Positions 2,365 to 44,227 of a stretch of DNA of 64,000 bases are shown piece after piece. Both the position numbers and the translations under genes were made by a program. Under the pieces are notes generated by a model. That model ran no database searches. It saw only the letters and a list, made by a program, of their open reading frames with translations, and was not told the origin of the DNA. Position 1 is the first letter of the stretch. Each line of letters begins with the position of its first letter. This DNA is from a phage, in sequence record PZ019084.1; one strand, 5' to 3'.

Positions 2365-2583
2365 TTATGTTTTGCGACTAAATTGTTCATAGTGCTGAAT
2401 TACCTCTCTCAAACATTTGCATGTGAATAAAAACTTTTTAGCTACACCACATTCAAATATATGTTCTCTTAAATCACGTGTGTCAGTATATCCCATCTCA
2501 ACAATAAAATGCCGTATTAGATTTTTATCTTTATCATTGAGAGAGTTAAAATAATCGGATTTTGAATTAATTTCCCTGGCCAA
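2365..2583 (-). CDS. hypothetical protein (arn-motA interval)
   Basis: 72-aa ORF in compact minus-strand gene array. Confidence 0.45.
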   Translation of the reverse strand: MAREINSKSDYFNSLNDKDKNLIRHFIVEMGYTDTRDLREHIFECGVAKKFLFTCKCLREVIQHYEQFSRKT

Positions 2584-2863
2584 ATTGAATCACCTTCAGT
2601 TGACGTTTTAGTTCTTTTATCATCTCTTCGTTCATCGCAATATAAAGATCGCGTAAAGCAGGCTTTAGCATTCCATTTATTGGGGAACTAAATGGACATA
2701 CATAATCTTTTCCTACGAGCTTTTTAGTGAATTCCATATTACAGAACTGAAATGCCGGTTCATTGGCATAAATTCCCCATTTGGTTGACATCATTTTATT
2801 GGCATATTCCAATGCCTGGATTTGATTCATAATTCCATCAATTTGAAACTTTTTAATATTCAT
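2567..2863 (-). CDS. hypothetical protein
   Basis: 98-aa ORF; start overlaps stop of upstream gene (ATGA). Confidence 0.5.
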   Translation of the reverse strand: MNIKKFQIDGIMNQIQALEYANKMMSTKWGIYANEPAFQFCNMEFTKKLVGKDYVCPFSSPINGMLKPALRDLYIAMNEEMIKELKRQLKVIQFGQGN

Positions 2864-3324
2864 TAGTAAAGGTCCTCAGAGTAAAGTTCTTTTTCACTAC
2901 CACCACGTTCAATACGTACTTGTCCAGCGTAAGTTGCAATAATCATTGCTTCTTCACGTGTCCAATAATTACTATATTGGTCAATAAACCCTTGGTCATC
3001 ATCACAAACTTGGTGAGTAACTAATTGAGGTTTAACTACATCTAAAACTTCGGCCATATCTTTAGAATAATGACGAGCACCTGGAATAACAAGAGTTCGT
3101 CCATCTTTTAATTTAAAACGATTGGCTGCGCAAACAATTCGTCGTTGATACTTTTGGTTTTCATCCCAATACGCAGACTGCCAGCAGATTTCAGGAACTT
3201 CTTTTAAAATATCTTCTTCTGTGCATTTATAGCCATGCGCTTTAAATTTTTCAACAAGACTTTCTGGAGTTTCACGGGATAAAGGAACATTCAGCATTTT
3301 TAAACGATTAATAAATGGGTTCAT
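2863..3324 (-). CDS. hypothetical protein
   Basis: 153-aa ORF, tightly packed with neighbours. Confidence 0.55.
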
Positions 3325-3650
3325 TTAAACCATCCTTTAATACGCTGCCACAAAGTTTTCTGTTGAGCTTTGTTTACGCCAATTGAGCGAATAACTGGTT
3401 GAGATTCCTGGAATTCTTTATAATCAGCAAGGTAAATTTCATAAGCTGCATCTGTAAATGAACTTATCGCTGACATAAAATTATTGCGAATACCTACTGG
3501 AGCATCTTTACTTTCACGAATAATCATGTATTTACCAGTTTTAATCTTTACGATAGTTCCAAGATAAGCTCCGTGGTACCAGATATCCCACCCCTCTTGA
3601 GTGGGTTCTGCACAACGACGAAGTTCATTGATAATTTCTAACTTGTTCAT
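3321..3650 (-). CDS. hypothetical protein (motA.1 position)
   Basis: 109-aa ORF immediately downstream of motA on the same strand. Confidence 0.55.
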
Positions 3651-3660
3651 TATTTATTCC

Positions 3661-4296
3661 TCACAGTTTAGATGCTACGGTGATTACTGCTTCAATGTTT
3701 TCTGCCGAGCGTTTAATGTCAAGATACACATTACCGTTTTTAGCGATTTTACATGACATTCCGATATCAGTAAATTTCTGAATATGATGTTCCATCATTT
3801 TGTATCCAAAAATTCGCATATTTCCATTGTTGTTAATTTCAAAATTACGAATTCCGTGAGTGCGTTTTTCTAAAATAGCGAGATAGTTACTGCGATAAGT
3901 TTCAACCTTTTTAAGAACAAATCCATTTTCATCTAAAAGTTTTAACATGAAGTCTTTATCTTCTTCCATATCGGAAGTAATCTCACGAGCTTTACGAGTT
4001 GCTCGTTTTTTCAGCAGTTCAGGAGCATTTTCCTGTGCGTATAAAGTTGCTGCATTTGAAATAATATCCTGAGCTTCACCTGTAATGATTAATCCATCAC
4101 CAGATTTCTCCACCAGGCCTTTTTTAATCAATACCCCAATATTACTATTAACTACTGCATTACCTAAATCTGGATGCACCTCACGAACTTCTGCAGCTGT
4201 AATGAAATCTTTCTTAGCAATGGTAATTAAAATCGCAGCAGTTTTTTCATTCAGAACATCGTTAGAAGCTTTGATGATGTAAGTTACTTTAGACAT
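3661..4296 (-). CDS. motA: middle-mode transcription activator MotA
   Basis: 211 aa starting MSKVTYIIKASNDVLNEKTAAILITIAKKDF, matching T4 MotA; SD ggag upstream. Confidence 0.9.
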   Translation of the reverse strand: MSKVTYIIKASNDVLNEKTAAILITIAKKDFITAAEVREVHPDLGNAVVNSNIGVLIKKGLVEKSGDGLIITGEAQDIISNAATLYAQENAPELLKKRATRKAREITSDMEEDKDFMLKLLDENGFVLKKVETYRSNYLAILEKRTHGIRNFEINNNGNMRIFGYKMMEHHIQKFTDIGMSCKIAKNGNVYLDIKRSAENIEAVITVASKL

Positions 4297-4335: not shown

Positions 4336-4390
4336 GTATAGTACCATAGTATGCTTTGGTTGTAAACCGTTTTGTGAAAAAATTTTTGAA
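4336..4390 (-). promoter_or_regulatory. T4-type early promoter upstream of motA
   Basis: minus strand reads GTTTAC (plus 4362-4367), 18-nt spacer, TACTAT (plus 4338-4343), with A/T-rich upstream element. Confidence 0.6.
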
Positions 4391-4418
4391 ATAAAAAAGG
4401 GAGAGCCGAGGCTCTCCC
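4391..4418 (-). terminator. rho-independent terminator-like hairpin
   Basis: gggagagccgaggctctccc stem-loop followed on the minus strand by a U-run (plus ataaaaaa). Confidence 0.55.
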
Positions 4419-4423
4419 TAAAA

Positions 4424-4573
4424 TTACTGCATGACTGTGATAACTGTCATGATAACACGTTGAATTCCGAACGCAAGAAGACCTCCTGCTACGGCAGGAA
4501 CAACACCTAAACCCGCCAGTAAAATGCCACCAGATACTAATGCAGCGCTTGTAATACCTATGAATGGACTCAT
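4424..4573 (-). CDS. small hydrophobic protein (~49 aa, below ORF-track cutoff)
   Basis: ATG overlaps gene 52 stop (ATGA); translation MSPFIGITSAALVSGGILLAGLGVVPAVAGGLLAFGIQRVIMTVITVMQ is one TM-like helix. Confidence 0.4.
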   Translation of the reverse strand: MSPFIGITSAALVSGGILLAGLGVVPAVAGGLLAFGIQRVIMTVITVMQ

Positions 4574-5898
4574 TTGATTTCCTCTAAATCTTTGGTGTAT
4601 TCTGTAACTACATCAGTAGTTTTCCAATATTCGTTTTCTTCTTTCTTAGCTTTAGCTTCTTCAGCAAGTTTCTTTGCTTCGTCGGAAGTCATATGAAAAA
4701 TATTCATTCCAACTAGTTTATCAACATAAGAAGAATACATATCAATTTTAGAAAGTTCTTCGGTCAGTTCTTTGCGAGTTTTACCTTGCACAACAATTTC
4801 ACCTGAAATTACTTTCTTAATGAAATGTGCCTTGGCAAAGGCTAAACGAAATGCTGATTCAGTTTCTTTGATTTTGTTATCAATTCGTTTTTGGACATAA
4901 GTTTTACGAACTTCAACGAAGTCTTTAATTAAATCAACTACGTTATCGTAAACTTGTAGTTTTCCTTTCTCATTAATAACGGTAATATTCTGGGAACGAC
5001 GCTCAATCAACCCGAAGTCTTTCATGATTTTTGCATGGCGTTCTTCTTCGTTATCACTCAAAGAGTATTCTTTGCGGAATTTAACTTTAAAGCCAAAACC
5101 ATGCTCACCACAAGCATCATCCCATGTAATGAAGCCTTTATCTTCAAGCGGGTCTAAGATTTTACTCACATAAGTTTCACGATCATACTTATACGGAATC
5201 TCAGTGATATTCATTTGAGTTCGTGAAGTAAACTTGTACGTTCCACGAATTTCATATTGACCGTCAATTTCAACGACTTCACCGCGAAATTCTGGGAATT
5301 CTACCTTCGGTTTAGTTACTTTCTTTCCTTGAAGAGCTTGTAGTACAGCTTTCTTGACAGAAGAAACACTATGAGGAAGAATGTAAGTTGCATAACCAGT
5401 TGCAATACCGGAAACACCATTAAGAAGAACGGTAGGAATAATAGGCAAATAGAAAGCAGGCGGAATGTGTTCTTTATCTTGATGTACCGGAGCATATTCA
5501 GTATCTTTATATACGTTATAGAAATTTTTACTTACACGAGCAAAAATATAACGACTTGCCGCTGCTTTTTGAACAGTACGAGAACCAAAGTTTCCTTGAC
5601 CATCTAACAAAGGAAAGTTATTATTCCAAGTATTAGCCATCAAAGCCCCCGCGTCTTGCGCAGAGTTTTCGCCATGATGATATCCAAGGTCCGCTACACC
5701 GCCTGCAATAGAAGCGAGTTTGTGAAACTTATCTTTATTTCCTCGTGCCAAATCAAGAGCTCGAGCAATAACAAATCGTTGAACTGGCTTAAATCCATCA
5801 ATCATATTTGGAATAGCACGATTTTCAACCGTGTACATAGCATAAGCCAGTGCTTCATTATCAATGATACTTTTTAAATCGCGATTGTTCAGTTGCAT
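4570..5898 (-). CDS. 52: DNA topoisomerase II medium subunit (GyrA-like)
   Basis: 442 aa with breakage-reunion domain; position motA-52 as in T4. Confidence 0.9.
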   Translation of the reverse strand: MQLNNRDLKSIIDNEALAYAMYTVENRAIPNMIDGFKPVQRFVIARALDLARGNKDKFHKLASIAGGVADLGYHHGENSAQDAGALMANTWNNNFPLLDGQGNFGSRTVQKAAASRYIFARVSKNFYNVYKDTEYAPVHQDKEHIPPAFYLPIIPTVLLNGVSGIATGYATYILPHSVSSVKKAVLQALQGKKVTKPKVEFPEFRGEVVEIDGQYEIRGTYKFTSRTQMNITEIPYKYDRETYVSKILDPLEDKGFITWDDACGEHGFGFKVKFRKEYSLSDNEEERHAKIMKDFGLIERRSQNITVINEKGKLQVYDNVVDLIKDFVEVRKTYVQKRIDNKIKETESAFRLAFAKAHFIKKVISGEIVVQGKTRKELTEELSKIDMYSSYVDKLVGMNIFHMTSDEAKKLAEEAKAKKEENEYWKTTDVVTEYTKDLEEIK

Positions 5899-5902
5899 AA
5901 AT

Positions 5903-6043
5903 TTACCATACTAGTGAATGTAGTGCCATAATAACATCAGAAATGAAAAGCACGACTTGAATTAATCCGAACATTACTCCATAATATAGTGCTATCAATA
6001 AAATAGCAAGGGCTAATGAATAGCCCAAGATTTTCTTAATCAT
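5903..6043 (-). CDS. small membrane protein (~46 aa)
   Basis: hand-translated MIKKILGYSLALAILLIALYYGVMFGLIQVVLFISDVIMALHSLVW; overlaps stop of upstream small ORF. Confidence 0.35.
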   Translation of the reverse strand: MIKKILGYSLALAILLIALYYGVMFGLIQVVLFISDVIMALHSLVW

Positions 6044-6194
6044 TAGTAGATAACAACACAAATGTTAAATATGCACACATACCCTGAGCTAAAGCTTGTG
6101 AAAACACACTGCTAGCATCAATACAGATAGTTAAAACACATGCTACTATCCAACAAATAAATGAAATAACTCCTAATAGTTTCGCAATATTCAT
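6036..6194 (-). CDS. small membrane protein (~52 aa), possibly ac-like
   Basis: hand-translated MNIAKLLGVISFICWIVACVLTICIDASSVFSQALAQGMCAYLTFVLLSTND; SD gagga 6 nt upstream; T4 has small membrane genes between 52 and ndd. Confidence 0.4.
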   Translation of the reverse strand: MNIAKLLGVISFICWIVACVLTICIDASSVFSQALAQGMCAYLTFVLLSTND

Positions 6195-6281
6195 ATTTTC
6201 CTCACTGGCGTCCGAAGACGCCTTTAGTTTTAAGATTGTTACGATAGAACTGCATCACATGTTCGTTATGGAAATTGCTCA

Positions 6282-6740
6282 TTAATATGCCTGCAAAACA
6301 AATTTAAAATTATCAGCCAACATACGGTTCATTTCTTCAAGTGTTTGATACTCAGAATGATGATTACGAGTAAACGCTAAAGCTAACTGACCTTTTCCAA
6401 ATCCAGTCGTCAGAGGTTTCATCTTAGAAGCAGGTAGATAAAATACCGTGTATGGAACATTGTTATTTGCAATAGTACGCGCAAGCTGAGATCGACATTG
6501 GCGAATATGACTTAGAACTGCACTGAATCCTTGCTTAGAGCGCTGATTACCTACATAAAATCGTGCAGACACACATGGATTACTAAATAGACGACCATCT
6601 AATTTACTTACTAAAAAGTAAAATCCAGGTTTAGATAAAATATCTTTATGTGGAACTCCCAAAAACCATTCACCGTTCTTGATTGTACCAATAACAGTTG
6701 CGCCTGCATTGTTCAAATCAGTAACAGTCATATATTTCAT
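6282..6740 (-). CDS. ndd: nucleoid disruption protein Ndd
   Basis: start set at internal ATG ([18 protein letters not shown]...) preceded by SD gagga, giving ~152 aa like T4 Ndd; ORF-track form extends to 6788. Confidence 0.75.
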
Positions 6741-6800
6741 TTTAATTTCCTCTAAATTATTTTCTACTCCAAGGCCGCATGAATACACACGGCCGATAAA

Positions 6801-7016: not shown

Positions 7017-7131
7017 AATTCACCTCAAGGAGTATAAAATCCGAATGCAGTTGTTGACCATCCCATCCAATATGGGAAATTTGCACCAATGTAAAACATA
7101 AGAATATAAAACCAAATGCTTAGTAAATTCA

Positions 7132-7350
7132 TTATTTTACACCATTCCAAATTGTTTCAACCACAGATTTTAAGCCATTTTGGTGAATATCCATTCCGAC
7201 AACTGCCATCAAATAGATTCCAACTACAACTGAACCTAAGGCAAAAATCAGCATGAAAATGAATAAAGCTGGAAAAATATTATCGAAAAACCATTCAATA
7301 AATGTAAAAGCACTGCGTTTACGCTTCATATTTTCCTCACATAAATCCAA
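7132..7350 (-). CDS. small membrane protein
   Basis: 72 aa with central hydrophobic helix (FPALFIFMLIFALGSVVVGIYLMAVVG). Confidence 0.5.
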   Translation of the reverse strand: MDLCEENMKRKRSAFTFIEWFFDNIFPALFIFMLIFALGSVVVGIYLMAVVGMDIHQNGLKSVVETIWNGVK

Positions 7351-7450
7351 AGTAAGCGTTTAATACATCAATCATTAAAACGATTGGGAATATACTCAAA
7401 ACTACTAGTATTATAACTACATTCCATATAGCTTTAACAATCTTTTTCAT
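7337..7450 (-). CDS. small membrane protein (~37 aa)
   Basis: ATG at 7450 preceded by SD ggagg and an early promoter; MKKIVKAIWNVVIILVVLSIFPIVLMIDVLNAYFGFM; ORF-track form (to 7585) reads through the promoter. Confidence 0.4.
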   Translation of the reverse strand: MKKIVKAIWNVVIILVVLSIFPIVLMIDVLNAYFGFM

Positions 7451-7476
7451 TTTCTGTTCCTCCGTAGTTGATAGGG

Positions 7477-7509
7477 TAATAATACCACAGAGGAACAGTC
7501 TTGTAAACA
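7477..7509 (-). promoter_or_regulatory. T4-type early promoter
   Basis: minus strand GTTTAC (plus 7503-7508), 18-nt spacer, TATTAT; belongs to the repeated promoter/5'UTR cassette. Confidence 0.55.
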
Positions 7510-7693
7510 ACTTTTTTAAAAATATTCGTAATAAATGTGAATACCAACTACTACCGCTGAAACTTGTGCAACCCACCACGCACAAGCAATAAGTACAGAA
7601 TTCAAAATTTTCATAATAACCTCATCACAAAAGTAAATACTAAACAAATCAATGGAATACTAATTAACCAAACAAAACACCACCACAACGAAC

Positions 7694-7966
7694 TCATAGT
7701 TCAATCTCAGCGATTTTCATTTCATTACTATTAATAGCCGCTTTAAGACTATCTGAAAGAATTACATTCCAGTGGTCATTCATATGACCATTAACTAAAC
7801 GTGTAATTTCTTCGGGAGTTGAAAAATAAGGCGTATCAGACTCCCAGTGCGATAACCCTAAGCGAGTATAAATCATACCTTCATCATCGCTAGAATATTC
7901 AACTGACACAAACTCATCAGTTATTTTATGTTTAGCGTAATAAAATTTAAATTTCATTTTACTCAA
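7694..7966 (-). CDS. hypothetical protein
   Basis: 90-aa ORF. Confidence 0.5.
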   Translation of the reverse strand: MSKMKFKFYYAKHKITDEFVSVEYSSDDEGMIYTRLGLSHWESDTPYFSTPEEITRLVNGHMNDHWNVILSDSLKAAINSNEMKIAEIEL

Positions 7967-32871: not shown

Positions 32872-32974
32872 TTAAACCTCAATTGATGCATTCATATTTA
32901 ATTTGTAACAGTAATAAACTCCAACCTATAATAAGTGGCGGAATCATAAGAGGAACTGTTACGCTATAGTATAT

Positions 32975-33005
32975 ACTTATTATAATCATCAAGATTAAAA
33001 GCAAT
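32975..33005 (-). promoter_or_regulatory. possible MotA-dependent middle promoter upstream of gene 42
   Basis: minus strand TTGCTTTT (MotA-box-like) about 12 nt upstream of TATAAT (plus attata 32979-32984). Confidence 0.35.
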
Positions 33006-33024
33006 ACTGCTAAAATTTTGCTTT

Positions 33025-33276
33025 TCATTCCTTCTCTCTGATGATAATTACTTGATTTTGCTGTACAGATTTTTTAGTTTCACCCGCAATTGACCAAATA
33101 AATGTAATAAACCAACCAATGATTGACCAGTTAAACAGTAAAGATGTGAAAAAGATTCCTACTGTCGATTTTGACCCACGCATCAAGGCGATGAACCACG
33201 GAAGCATGTATATAATAATAGCCAACACGCCTGAAACTAAAACCATAAAAATTGAACCTGCTACTAAAGTTTCCAT
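33025..33276 (-). CDS. imm: immunity protein Imm (superinfection exclusion, membrane)
   Basis: 83 aa with two TM helices; same length and position as T4 imm. Confidence 0.8.
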   Translation of the reverse strand: METLVAGSIFMVLVSGVLAIIIYMLPWFIALMRGSKSTVGIFFTSLLFNWSIIGWFITFIWSIAGETKKSVQQNQVIIIREKE

Positions 33277-43051: not shown

Positions 43052-44067
43052 TGTGTTGCCTCTACATATAACTGATTTGCATATTGAATAAGTGCTTCGC
43101 GGTCAGAATCAGTGATGTCTGGAATTGTATTAATGTATTCTTCCATCAACGTCTGAAGAGATTGAACTTCAACTTCTTCACTATCATCTGACTCGATAGA
43201 GTTATCAATCTTTGACACAACTCGTAATGAATGCACAACTTTTTCTAGTTCAGATTCGAACTTCGTTAGATTTTTGTCTACCTCAGTTACTATAACACGT
43301 ACTGATAGATTTGTAAAATCTTTATAGTCAATTTTTCCCTTAAATGGATACTGAATTCGACGGTGCCAAGTAGTGTTGTTTGGAATAAATTCCATTCGTT
43401 CTGTTTCTGTATCAAACATCCAGAACCCGCGAGGGTCATTCTCGTCACCTGCAGTTAGTGTCCATGGTGTCCCAATATATCTGACGTTAGCAGCCTCAGA
43501 GATAGTATGGAAGTGACCAGACCACACCTCTTTATAAGTCTTAAGGAAATCAGGTTCAAGACCGTGAGATTTCATTCCTTTATAAAAATAAAATCCATTC
43601 AGTTCCCAGTGACCAACACAAAAAGAAGCAGATGAAGTTTTGATGTGTTCAAGAATTTCACCAGTATTTTCTTCGCACATCCAAGGAATTAAATCAATCA
43701 AACATCCGTCAAAATCTACTGTAGTAGGCTTATCATATACTTTAACATTAGGATATTTAGCCAAAAGCTCAGTAGAAGCATTTGGAGTTAAAGTATTTTT
43801 AAAGTGCATATCATGGTTTCCTACAACAGTATGTAGGGTAATACCAGCATCATCAAGCATTTGAACTATTTCACGAGCGAACTCCATAGTTTTATGCGTG
43901 ATTGCTTTTCGCACATCAAAAATATCGCCGTATTGAATCCATGTAGTAATTCCGTTTTTCTTAGAATATTCTATTGCTTGTTTAATTCCATCCAACTGAA
44001 TGGATTGAACCCACTCATCATCGGCTTTAACACCTAAATGCCAATCACCTAAATTTAAAATTTTCAT
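43048..44067 (-). CDS. 47: recombination nuclease subunit (Mre11/SbcD-like)
   Basis: 339 aa; phosphoesterase motifs (GDWH, GNHD). Confidence 0.9.
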   Translation of the reverse strand: MKILNLGDWHLGVKADDEWVQSIQLDGIKQAIEYSKKNGITTWIQYGDIFDVRKAITHKTMEFAREIVQMLDDAGITLHTVVGNHDMHFKNTLTPNASTELLAKYPNVKVYDKPTTVDFDGCLIDLIPWMCEENTGEILEHIKTSSASFCVGHWELNGFYFYKGMKSHGLEPDFLKTYKEVWSGHFHTISEAANVRYIGTPWTLTAGDENDPRGFWMFDTETERMEFIPNNTTWHRRIQYPFKGKIDYKDFTNLSVRVIVTEVDKNLTKFESELEKVVHSLRVVSKIDNSIESDDSEEVEVQSLQTLMEEYINTIPDITDSDREALIQYANQLYVEATQ

Positions 44068-44227
44068 ATATCAAGAACCGTCATTGAAATGCAAAATAAA
44101 ATTATTGAAATAAATCCGTCCGGAGTGCTAAAGAACCCAATCCAACATGCTCTAGTGAATAGATAAAATGCGAGAAAAAGTATCACATATCCAAGAAATA
44201 TCATTATATCAAACTCCGTATAAAGCT

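What the first reader, a model, noticed from the sequence alone, without database searches (positions are those of the whole stretch)
4424..6194. Three small hydrophobic ORFs (46-52 aa) flanking gene 52, all below the ORF-track cutoff
Hand translation gives single-helix peptides at 4424-4573, 5903-6043 and 6036-6194, with ATGA overlaps or SD sequences. They fill otherwise empty intergenic space in a compact genome. Small membrane proteins at this position in T4 include ac and stp, and such peptides often act in superinfection exclusion or defence activation/evasion.
Basis: partly seen in the sequence, partly recalled or inferred. Interest (0 to 1): 0.45.

Follow-up and report, generated by a model that had tools for sequence, protein, structure and literature searches.

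The report
T4 genes motA.1, 52.1 and ac
The three tiny hydrophobic reading frames around the phage topoisomerase gene are real, but they are the catalogued phage T4 genes motA.1, 52.1 and ac (the acridine-sensitivity gene), so the finding is correct and ordinary.

Summary
The window is a T4-like (Tequatrovirus) phage. The three ORFs exist at the stated coordinates, all on the minus strand. They are orthologues of annotated T4 genes. 4424-4573 is motA.1 (49 aa, 98% identical to the T4 protein). 5903-6043 is 52.1 (46 aa, 96%, Pfam DUF7396). 6036-6194 is ac (52 aa, 49 of 51 T4 residues).

They are true genes. The frames are kept in hundreds of phage genomes. Substitutions are mostly synonymous. 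52.1 has recognisable homologues down to 25-31% identity, in phages whose gp52 is about 68% identical. motA.1 has a GAGGA site and an ATGA overlap, ac has a GAGG site, and 52.1 overlaps ac by 8 nt.

Published T4 data show early transcripts but no detected protein. All three genes are dispensable in the laboratory. Only ac has a phenotype: its product makes infected cells accumulate acridines, and inhibition of the AcrAB-TolC pump has been proposed but not proven.

However, Stp is a separate hydrophilic 26-aa peptide at 6202-6282. Nothing supports a role in exclusion or defence.

One mildly new observation: a small hydrophobic ORF overlapping or abutting the gene 52 stop codon recurs in 26 of 39 T4-like loci, in at least 6 sequence groups.

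The parts
4424..4573 (-). motA.1: 49-aa Gly/Ala-rich hydrophobic peptide (MSPFIGITSAALVSGG...QRVIMTVITVMQ)
   Evidence: 98% identical to T4 MotA.1 NP_049874. PHROG 3487, E = 7e-31. Database clusters carry the precomputed Pfam accession PF26886. Full-length tblastn matches in 459 phage records, all >= 90% identical. Third-codon-position excess among 16 Tequatrovirus sequences, [10,4,25], P = 8e-5.
4570..4573 (-). ATGA overlap of the gene 52 stop (TGA) and the motA.1 start (ATG)
   Evidence: Read directly from the sequence. The same start-on-stop overlap occurs in the related loci.
4580..4584 (-). GAGGA Shine-Dalgarno sequence for motA.1, inside the 3' end of gene 52
   Evidence: The 25 nt upstream of the motA.1 ATG read ACACCAAAGATTTAGAGGAAATCAA.
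4389..4419 (-). Intrinsic terminator directly after the motA.1 stop (AGGGAGAGCC-TCGG-CTCTCCCT followed by TTTTTTATTTC)
   Evidence: Terminator scan: 9-bp stem with 6 G-C pairs, then a T run. The same element is listed as the 'motA.1' terminator (-19.6) in phage UFV13 (PMC5931544). It is annotated as a terminator in fPS-65 and G28.
4570..5898 (-). Gene 52, topoisomerase II medium subunit (context; the three ORFs flank it)
   Evidence: Pfam DNA_topoisoIV, E = 1.6e-76. Matches T4 gene 52.
5903..6043 (-). 52.1: 46-aa hydrophobic peptide ending ...LFISDVIMALHSLVW
   Evidence: 96% identical to T4 gp52.1 NP_049876. Pfam DUF7396, 80.1 bits against a cut-off of 27. PHROG 3595. tblastn matches in 730 phage records. 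Homologues directly upstream of gene 52 in loci whose gp52 is about 68% identical, with L32, F33, V37 and W46 invariant. In the last 23 codons pS is 0.49-0.57 and pN 0.06-0.09 against L007 and L037.
6036..6194 (-). ac: 52-aa membrane peptide, the acridine-sensitivity gene (PP01-type allele with an extra Thr, ...LLSTND)
   Evidence: 49 of 51 T4 Ac residues identical and 100% identical to phage KMB39 'ac'. PHROG 2501. Clusters carry the precomputed Pfam accession PF26944. Matches in 472 phage records. The 4-5 nucleotide differences from other Tequatroviruses are all synonymous in 6 of 7 pairs. G38, whose change to R gives acriflavine resistance in T4, is intact.
6200..6203 (-). GAGG Shine-Dalgarno sequence for ac, overlapping the stp stop codon
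   Evidence: The 25 nt upstream of the ac ATG read GTCTTCGGACGCCAGTGAGGAAAAT.
6202..6282 (-). stp: 26-aa hydrophilic peptide (context; not one of the three ORFs)
   Evidence: Pfam Nuclease_act, E = 2e-21. Identical to T4 Stp. GRAVY -1.03.

Best explanation
The three ORFs are the orthologues of phage T4 genes motA.1, 52.1 and ac in a Tequatrovirus genome. They lie in one leftward gene block, ndd-stp-ac-52.1-52-motA.1, which ends at the intrinsic terminator just after motA.1.

Translation (inferred from sequence). ac starts from its own GAGG site. 52.1 has no such site and probably starts by coupling to ac termination through the 8-nt overlap. motA.1 starts at an ATGA overlap with the gene 52 stop, helped by a GAGGA site.

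Products (inferred). Each is a 46-52-aa helical peptide that most likely inserts into the host inner membrane early in infection.

Ac (shown by others in T4). Ac makes infected cells, or cells expressing it, accumulate or become sensitive to acriflavine and ampicillin. Loss of ac makes the phage acridine-resistant. [quoted passage not shown] gp52.1 and MotA.1. Neither has a known function. They are dispensable in laboratory hosts but under purifying selection. My best guess is that they are accessory modulators of the host envelope or membrane proteins, useful only in some hosts or conditions.
For: Identity and synteny. The region is 97.7% identical to Tequatrovirus genomes. The gene order motA / motA.1 / 52 / 52.1 / ac / stp / ndd matches the T4 reference record. 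Protein identities to T4 are 98%, 96% and 49 of 51 residues. Family matches: DUF7396 and PHROGs 3487, 3595 and 2501.

Coding constraint.
- ac: 4-5 differences per pair, all synonymous in 6 of 7 pairs.
- motA.1: changes by codon position [10,4,25], P = 8e-5. A 37-39% identical 49-aa version with the same ATGA overlap occurs in L009, L010, L013 and L042, and within that clade pS is 0.76 and pN 0.14.
- 52.1: pN/pS 0.24-0.26 against L037 and L006. In its most conserved C-terminal half pS is 0.49-0.57 and pN 0.06-0.09.

Signals: GAGGA and GAGG sites and start-stop overlaps, and a terminator.

Expression in T4: motA.1, 52.1, ac and stp transcripts are classed 'early' (PMC9697503 Table S2).

Dispensability. 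Transposon insertions hit 11/11, 16/16 and 19/19 TA sites in motA.1, 52.1 and ac, while gene 52 is essential (bioRxiv 10.1101/2025.11.20.689424). CRISPRi-ART knock-downs of the three are 'Not Fit' and gene 52 is 'Fit' (PMC11879866). A T4 mutant with a deletion spanning gp52.1 to rIIB was recovered as viable plaques (PMC9712115).

Ac phenotype and efflux hypothesis: bioRxiv 10.1101/2025.06.30.662393, repeated in PMC13250531.
Against: None of the three peptides was detected in the T4 time-course proteome (class 'NA'). This is expected for tiny peptides with few or no tryptic sites, but it means translation of motA.1 and 52.1 is still inferred.

Within Tequatrovirus, 52.1 shows no third-position excess ([7,3,7], P = 0.33). 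Its coding support comes from deeper comparisons.

Membrane insertion is only predicted. On the Hessa biological hydrophobicity scale (values recalled from memory), MotA.1 is marginal, with a best 19-residue window of about +0.9 kcal/mol.

The AcrAB-TolC mechanism rests on indirect phenotypes in one preprint. No binding data exist, and Ac shows no sequence similarity to the known AcrB-binding peptide AcrZ.

ac is inactivated or replaced in several natural and laboratory phages, so its benefit is conditional at best.
Confidence: 0.9

Rival explanations
1. One or more of the peptides, most plausibly gp52.1 or MotA.1, acts in superinfection exclusion or in activating or evading a host defence system.
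For: Genomic neighbourhood only. Stp, the next gene, is annotated as an activator of the host PrrC anticodon nuclease, and in one record as a type IC restriction inhibitor. The leftward early block also holds arn, and rIIB is nearby. The genes are non-essential yet conserved, as accessory anti-host genes usually are.
Against: PADLOC gives no hit. Pfam gives no match other than DUF7396 even at E <= 10, so none to Imm-type exclusion or holin families. The T4 transposon library was challenged with RexAB, RnlAB, CBASS, DarTG1, DarTG2 and clinical strains. In the conditional-comparison rows the look-ups displayed, 52.1, motA.1 and ac each have q = 1.0. I did not read every condition table.
Confidence: 0.15
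2. The small membrane peptides flanking gene 52 are functionally tied to the topoisomerase, for example by tethering gp52/gp39 or replicating DNA to the inner membrane. That would explain why a stop-overlapping hydrophobic ORF recurs at this position.
For: In 26 of 39 gp52 loci a hydrophobic ORF of 22-77 aa starts on, or within a few bases of, the gene 52 stop codon. These ORFs fall into at least 6 sequence groups. In this window only 1 of 61 long minus-strand ORFs has such a partner, and it is gene 52. 52.1 homologues sit directly upstream of gene 52 in most loci with gp52 >= 66% identity. From memory and unverified here: 1970s fractionation studies found gp39 and gp52 in membrane fractions, and acridine-type drugs such as m-AMSA target the T4 topoisomerase. 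A T6 topoisomerase structure with m-AMSA bound is described in PMC11461880.
Against: Gene 52 is essential or 'Fit' while 52.1 and motA.1 are fully dispensable. Thirteen of 39 loci have no such downstream ORF. Purified recombinant T4/T6 topoisomerase was assembled from gp39 (with gp60) and gp52 alone and tested for relaxation activity. Small membrane ORFs are common throughout the variable regions of T4-type genomes, and ATGA overlaps are this genome type's usual way of joining genes, so the site may simply tolerate insertions. Related loci are not independent samples.
Confidence: 0.1
3. The ORFs, or at least 52.1, are not translated. Their conservation reflects DNA or RNA signals for gene 52 (promoter, ribosome-binding region) or chance open frames in AT-rich DNA.
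For: No protein was detected in the T4 proteome. 52.1 has no Shine-Dalgarno sequence. A promoter-like site (TTGCTA-17-TATTAT) lies inside 52.1 at 6009-5981. 52.1 shows no third-position excess within the genus.
Against: In the last 23 codons of 52.1, which lie closest to gene 52, synonymous sites diverge freely (pS 0.49-0.57) while amino acids are kept (pN 0.06-0.09). The frame, length and C-terminal W are kept in phages where the peptide is only 25-31% identical. motA.1 and ac show strong synonymous bias. ac has classical genetics: point mutations and knockouts give a phenotype. Rfam finds no RNA family here.
Confidence: 0.03

Closest known systems
Phage T4 Ac (gene ac, T4p266, NP_049877; called pr in T2): the 'acridine resistance protein'
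   Same: Same position between stp and 52.1, same strand and same length class. 49 of 51 residues are identical, including G38. The extra Thr near the C-terminus is the PP01-type allele, which is reported to keep acriflavine sensitivity.
   Different: Only the Thr insertion (...LLSTND against ...LLSND). The database name misleads: the wild-type gene confers sensitivity, and its loss confers resistance.
Phage T4 gp52.1 (T4p265, NP_049876; Pfam DUF7396 / PF24129; PHROG 3595)
   Same: Same position 4 nt upstream of gene 52 and the same 8-nt overlap with ac. 44 of 46 residues identical. Full-length match to DUF7396.
   Different: Two conservative substitutions, A14I and V17I. The function is unknown in T4 as well.
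Phage T4 MotA.1 (T4p263, NP_049874; PHROG 3487; precomputed Pfam accession PF26886)
   Same: Same ATGA overlap with the gene 52 stop and the same terminator downstream. 48 of 49 residues identical.
   Different: One substitution, S16G. The T4 label 'predicted periplasmic protein' and other records' labels ('transcriptional regulator', 'flagellar motor protein MotA') have no experimental basis that I found.
E. coli AcrZ (YbhT), a 49-aa membrane peptide that binds AcrB (PDB 4C48)
   Same: Same size class, helical and membrane-embedded. It is the known example of a small peptide acting on the AcrAB-TolC pump, which is the mechanism proposed for Ac.
   Different: No detectable sequence similarity to Ac (BLASTP finds no alignment at E <= 100). 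That AcrZ is a host accessory factor rather than an inhibitor is from my own knowledge. No binding of Ac to AcrB has been shown.
Phage T4 Stp (26 aa; Pfam Nuclease_act)
   Different: Hydrophilic (GRAVY -1.03) and not a membrane peptide. It is a separate ORF at 6202-6282, and none of the three ORFs resembles it.

Membership tests
T4 Ac (acridine-sensitivity peptide; PHROG 2501; Pfam accession PF26944 as precomputed in the protein database) | Full-length sequence homology to T4 Ac | tested here: met
   49 of 51 T4 residues identical. PHROG 2501, E = 3.7e-25 over residues 1-51. All hits in the protein database carry PF26944.
T4 Ac (acridine-sensitivity peptide; PHROG 2501; Pfam accession PF26944 as precomputed in the protein database) | Position between stp and 52.1, upstream of gene 52, on the same strand | tested here: met
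   Window order ndd-stp-ac-52.1-52 matches NC_000866.
T4 Ac (acridine-sensitivity peptide; PHROG 2501; Pfam accession PF26944 as precomputed in the protein database) | Intact frame and the functionally critical G38 (G38R gives resistance in T4) | tested here: met
   No stop or frameshift, and G38 is present. The G38R phenotype is from bioRxiv 10.1101/2025.06.30.662393.
T4 Ac (acridine-sensitivity peptide; PHROG 2501; Pfam accession PF26944 as precomputed in the protein database) | Confers acriflavine sensitivity on infection; loss gives resistance | not testable with these tools
   Needs plating with and without acriflavine, comparing wild type and an ac deletion of this phage.
gp52.1 / DUF7396 (PF24129) | Score above the Pfam gathering threshold over the full model | tested here: met
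   80.1 bits against a cut-off of 27, model positions 1-46 of 46.
gp52.1 / DUF7396 (PF24129) | Location immediately upstream of the topoisomerase medium-subunit gene | tested here: met
   A 4-nt gap to the gene 52 ATG. The same arrangement occurs in T4 and in related loci.
MotA.1 (PHROG 3487; Pfam accession PF26886 as precomputed) | Full-length homology, with conserved M1 S2 F4 G6 T8 A10 A11 L12 G15 G21 R39 | tested here: met
   98% identical to T4. PHROG 3487, E = 7e-31. Invariant columns from alignment A5.
MotA.1 (PHROG 3487; Pfam accession PF26886 as precomputed) | Start codon overlapping the gene 52 stop (ATGA), followed by an intrinsic terminator | tested here: met
Stp (Pfam PF08133, anticodon nuclease activator) | Match of any of the three ORFs to the Stp family | tested here: not met
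   Only the separate ORF at 6202-6282 matches Nuclease_act. The three ORFs do not.
AcrZ-type efflux-pump accessory peptides | Sequence similarity to AcrZ | tested here: not met
   No BLASTP alignment at E <= 100. The AcrZ sequence was verified against PDB 4C48_C.
AcrZ-type efflux-pump accessory peptides | Physical binding to AcrB | not testable with these tools
   Needs co-purification, a two-hybrid assay or a complex structure.
Known phage superinfection-exclusion proteins, holins, or defence-related proteins | Profile match to a described family | tested here: not met
   Pfam at E <= 10 returns only DUF7396 and a sub-threshold Glycophorin_A match (11.2 bits against 30.1) for 52.1, and nothing for the other two. 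PADLOC returns nothing. NCBIfam returns only a Bac51 match far below its cut-off (14.8 bits against 150).

The most novel reading that the evidence does not exclude
A small hydrophobic ORF starting on or within a few bases of the stop codon of the topoisomerase gene 52 recurs in T4-like phages even though its sequence has been replaced several times. It occurs in 26 of 39 loci and in at least 6 sequence groups, against 1 of 61 long genes in this window. A conserved 52.1 peptide also sits directly upstream of gene 52 in most loci. This could mean the peptides work with the topoisomerase, for example by anchoring it or replicating DNA to the inner membrane. It could also connect to the location of the acridine-sensitivity gene ac beside the gene for an acridine-drug target.
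Probability: 0.1. Interest if true: 0.5.

Novelty: already known. Interest (0 to 1): 0.1.

Why it matters
As a discovery it matters little. The three ORFs are named genes in the T4 reference genome, and ac has been studied genetically since the 1960s.

Two practical points remain:
- Gene callers and annotators often miss or mislabel these genes. 52.1 and stp are absent from many GenBank records. MotA.1 is labelled 'transcriptional regulator', 'flagellar motor protein MotA' or 'topoisomerase', apparently by propagation of its name. A scan that recovers them from raw sequence is therefore working properly.
- gp52.1 and MotA.1 are conserved, under purifying selection and dispensable in the laboratory, yet no function is known for either. 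The proposed Ac-AcrAB-TolC mechanism is also unproven. They remain reasonable small targets for studying how phages alter host membranes.

Tried and rejected
- Pfam at E <= 10 gave nothing for MotA.1 or Ac in the local copy, and only DUF7396 plus a sub-threshold Glycophorin_A match for 52.1.
- NCBIfam gave only a sub-threshold Bac51 bacteriocin match for Ac (14.8 bits against a cut-off of 150). I rejected it as hydrophobic-composition noise.
- PADLOC gave nothing.
- PDB sequence searches at E <= 10 gave nothing for Ac and gp52.1. For MotA.1 they gave one E = 0.75 match to a pilus-like protein, which I rejected.
- Ac against AcrZ gave no alignment.
- Rfam at E <= 1 gave three matches far below their gathering scores, which I rejected.
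- AlphaFold2 without an alignment gave one 44-46-residue helix each for MotA.1 and gp52.1. The models are confident, but such a helix is longer than a bilayer is thick. They therefore do not settle whether the peptides span the membrane once or form a hairpin. I did not run fold searches, because a single helix matches anything.
- An exhaustive phmmer search with MotA.1 against 1.84 billion representatives found only 3 clusters, all 49 aa. There is no wider or bacterial family.
- The Miller et al. 2003 T4 genome review (PMC150520) is not held, and a first literature query failed on term length.
- I asked whether conservation of 52.1 is due to gene 52 regulatory DNA. I rejected this because synonymous sites in its 3' half diverge freely.
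- Grouping the peptides downstream of gene 52 by permissive BLASTP merged three Leu/Val/Ile-rich sets (L015; L020 and L021; L022 and L039). The merge is probably compositional, so I report 'at least 6 groups' rather than 8.
Full report
**What is there.**
The window is a T4-like phage. Region 3600-6900 matches 477 phage records over at least 80% of its length, and the best is 97.7% identical (Shigella phage SH-1). Pfam identifies the neighbouring genes as MotA (3661-4296), topoisomerase II medium subunit gp52 (4570-5898), Stp (6202-6282) and Ndd (ORF listed at 6282-6788; the T4-like start is the internal ATG at 6740).

The T4 reference record NC_000866 has the same minus-strand order: motA, motA.1, 52, 52.1, ac, stp, ndd. 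The three ORFs align end to end with three T4 proteins:

| Window ORF | Length | T4 protein | Identity |
|---|---|---|---|
| 4424-4573 | 49 aa | MotA.1 | 98% |
| 5903-6043 | 46 aa | gp52.1 | 96% |
| 6036-6194 | 52 aa | Ac | 49 of 51 residues |

The Ac here is also 100% identical to the 'ac' product of phage KMB39.

- Coordinates, lengths and start codons are as stated, and all three ORFs are on the minus strand.
- GRAVY values are 1.61, 1.80 and 1.42.
- The motA.1 ATG overlaps the gene 52 TGA (ATGA, 4570-4573), with a GAGGA at 4580-4584.
- ac has a GAGG at 6200-6203 that overlaps the stp stop.
- 52.1 has no Shine-Dalgarno sequence, but its ATG lies in an 8-nt overlap with the end of ac (ATGATTAA).
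- A strong intrinsic terminator (9-bp stem, 6 G-C pairs, T run) follows motA.1 at 4398-4419. It is listed as the 'motA.1' terminator in a related phage (PMC5931544).
- The window has 16 small ATG ORFs with GRAVY >= 1.3. Nine lie wholly inside longer ORFs. Seven lie in gaps between genes, and these three are among them.

**They are genes, not chance frames.**
tblastn finds full-length MotA.1 in 459 phage records, all at least 90% identical. It finds Ac in 472 records and gp52.1 in 730, including the genus Mosigvirus.

*Comparisons within Tequatrovirus.*
- ac differs from other members by 4-5 nucleotides, all synonymous in 6 of 7 pairs.
- motA.1 shows 0-1 non-synonymous changes out of 1-4.
- Across 16 motA.1 sequences the minimum changes by codon position are [10,4,25], P = 8e-5 for the third-position excess. 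Gene 52 gives [14,3,139].

*The case for 52.1.* Inside the genus it shows no such bias ([7,3,7]). Against L037, whose gp52 is 89% identical, pS is 0.74 and pN 0.19. In its last 23 codons, the part closest to gene 52 and its possible regulatory signals, pS is 0.49-0.57 while pN is 0.06-0.09. That rules out conservation by DNA signals alone.

*Family matches.*
- gp52.1 homologues, 44-46 aa and always ending in W, sit directly upstream of gene 52 in phages whose gp52 is about 68% identical. L32, F33, V37 and W46 are invariant.
- MotA.1 has a 37-39% identical 49-aa counterpart with the same ATGA overlap in another clade. Within that clade pS is 0.76 and pN 0.14.
- All three match PHROG families of unknown function, and 52.1 matches Pfam DUF7396.
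- The protein database lists precomputed Pfam accessions PF26886 for MotA.1 and PF26944 for Ac, which the local Pfam copy lacks.
- The MotA.1 family is tiny and confined to phages: 16 clusters at 90% identity and 3 clusters at 50% among 1.84 billion representatives.

**What is known experimentally, all from T4 itself.**
- In a time-resolved omics study the motA.1, 52.1, ac and stp transcripts are 'early', and none of the proteins was detected (PMC9697503 Table S2). Non-detection is unsurprising for peptides this small and hydrophobic; MotA.1, for example, has a single Arg.
- In transposon sequencing, insertions are tolerated at 11/11, 16/16 and 19/19 TA sites of motA.1, 52.1 and ac, whereas gene 52 is essential. 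Each of the three genes has q = 1.0 in the conditional-comparison rows that the look-ups displayed (bioRxiv 10.1101/2025.11.20.689424). That library was challenged with RexAB, RnlAB, CBASS, DarTG1, DarTG2 and clinical strains.
- RNA-level knock-downs of the three are 'Not Fit', and gene 52 is 'Fit' (PMC11879866).
- A T4 mutant with a deletion spanning gp52.1 to rIIB was recovered as viable plaques (PMC9712115).

**Ac.**
- ac is the only one of the three with a phenotype. Wild-type ac makes infection sensitive to acriflavine, and knockouts or G38R make the phage resistant.
- Expressing ac in E. coli sensitises the cells to acriflavine and ampicillin.
- The PP01-type allele with the extra Thr, the allele in this window, behaves like wild type.
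- ESMFold predicts two short helices joined at D26-A27.
- The authors propose that Ac blocks AcrAB-TolC efflux, whereas earlier work proposed increased uptake (bioRxiv 10.1101/2025.06.30.662393). A 2026 PNAS paper repeats the efflux idea as an assumption (PMC13250531).
- I found no sequence similarity between Ac and AcrZ, the known AcrB-binding peptide, and no solved-structure relatives of any of the three peptides.

**Mechanism, with its status.**
- *Shown by sequence:* one co-directional gene block ending at the motA.1 terminator, with translation start signals as listed above.
- *Shown by others in T4:* early transcription, dispensability, and acridine sensitivity from ac.
- *Inferred:* 52.1 is translated by coupling to ac. 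All three insert into the inner membrane as helical peptides.
  - AlphaFold2 without an alignment gives single long helices for MotA.1 and gp52.1 (pLDDT 90 and 94).
  - A simple hydrophobicity-scale scan, using values recalled from memory, gives a clear membrane segment in Ac (residues 6-24) and in gp52.1 (residues 10-28). It gives only a marginal one in the Gly/Ala-rich MotA.1.
- *Hypothesis:* Ac blocks AcrAB-TolC, and gp52.1 and MotA.1 are conditional modulators of the host envelope.

It is right about the T4 neighbourhood and right that the frames would prove conserved. It is wrong to count Stp as a membrane peptide, because Stp is hydrophilic (GRAVY -1.03) and is a separate ORF. The suggested role in exclusion or defence has no support from profile searches or from the published screens.

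**Side observations.**
- *Small ORFs after gene 52.* In 39 loci encoding gp52 relatives (47-100% identity), 26 have a hydrophobic ORF of 22-77 aa that starts on or within a few bases of the gene 52 stop codon. These ORFs fall into at least 6 sequence groups. In this window only gene 52, out of 61 long minus-strand ORFs, has such a partner. This may reflect a functional tie to the topoisomerase, or simply a site that tolerates small insertions. I rate the former at about 10%.
- *The ac locus is unstable.*
  - T2 record AP018813 has a stop at codon 11, fPS-65 has a frameshift, and Sf25 has lost the 3' end of stp and the 5' part of ac.
  - RB51 carries a 33% identical allele (alignment A6), and REP4 has a 48% identical Ac-like ORF at the same position.
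  - One metagenomic cluster is an Stp-Ac fusion.
  - 52.1 and motA.1 stay intact in these phages.
- *Annotation.* 52.1 and stp are often unannotated, and MotA.1 carries spurious names in many records.

**Verdict.**
The remaining open questions are the natural functions of gp52.1 and MotA.1 and the real mechanism of Ac.

Noticed in passing
L003-L043 (gene 52 on the + strand, usually at 2501-3826); window 4570-4573: A hydrophobic ORF of 22-77 aa starts on or within a few bases of the gene 52 stop codon in 26 of 39 T4-like loci. It falls into at least 6 sequence groups: the 49-aa MotA.1 type, 26 aa, 34 aa, 22 aa, a merged 23-46-aa group, and 77 aa. In this window only 1 of 61 long minus-strand ORFs has such a partner.
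   Followed up: partly
L044 (T2, AP018813), L049 (fPS-65), L046 (Sf25), L053 (RB51), L045 (REP4), P0019: The ac locus is unstable. T2 record AP018813 has a stop at codon 11, fPS-65 has a frameshift, and Sf25 has a deletion removing the 3' end of stp and the 5' part of ac. RB51 carries a 33% identical allele and REP4 a 48% identical Ac-like ORF at the same position. One metagenomic cluster is an Stp-Ac fusion. 52.1 and motA.1 stay intact in these phages.
   Followed up: partly
GenBank records matched: MotA.1 is labelled 'transcriptional regulator', 'flagellar motor protein MotA' or 'topoisomerase' in many records, apparently propagated from the gene name. One gene in this block is labelled 'naphthalene 1,2-dioxygenase' in two phages. 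52.1 and stp are often not annotated at all.
   Followed up: no
window 6207-6222 (minus strand GGCGTC-TTCG-GACGCC): A G+C-rich hairpin with a UUCG loop lies in the last codons of stp, just upstream of the ac ribosome-binding site. On the plus strand it scores as terminator-like, and it is listed as such in phages UFV13 and G28. It may stabilise the mRNA or modulate ac translation.
   Followed up: no
window 5981-6009 (minus strand), inside 52.1: A promoter-like site, TTGCTA-17-TATTAT, lies within the 52.1 coding sequence upstream of gene 52. It could be a promoter for the topoisomerase gene. Gene 52 has no obvious Shine-Dalgarno sequence and starts 4 nt after the 52.1 stop.
   Followed up: no
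window 7025-7697, 32879-33028 and 44064-44204 (all minus strand): More small hydrophobic ORFs lie in gaps between genes. There is a cluster between ndd and denB, at the position of T4 ndd.2-ndd.6, and two isolated ORFs of 49 aa and 46 aa. They are probably further annotated T4-type small membrane genes.
   Followed up: no
L007, L009, L013, L022, L037, L039, upstream of gene 52: The interval between ndd and gene 52 in other T4-like genera holds two to four small predicted membrane ORFs in varying combinations. They include Ac-like peptides (W15 and T22 invariant, with a central TGE(T/S)SV..Q loop in several), a 53-aa MIIIVFIELI... type and a 57-aa ...ERLCK.CG type. The interval is a hot spot for small membrane genes.
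   Followed up: partly
Protein database entries P0001-P0024: The precomputed Pfam accessions PF26886 (MotA.1) and PF26944 (Ac) are absent from the local Pfam-A copy. That copy therefore reports no family for these two proteins, although newer Pfam families evidently exist.
   Followed up: no
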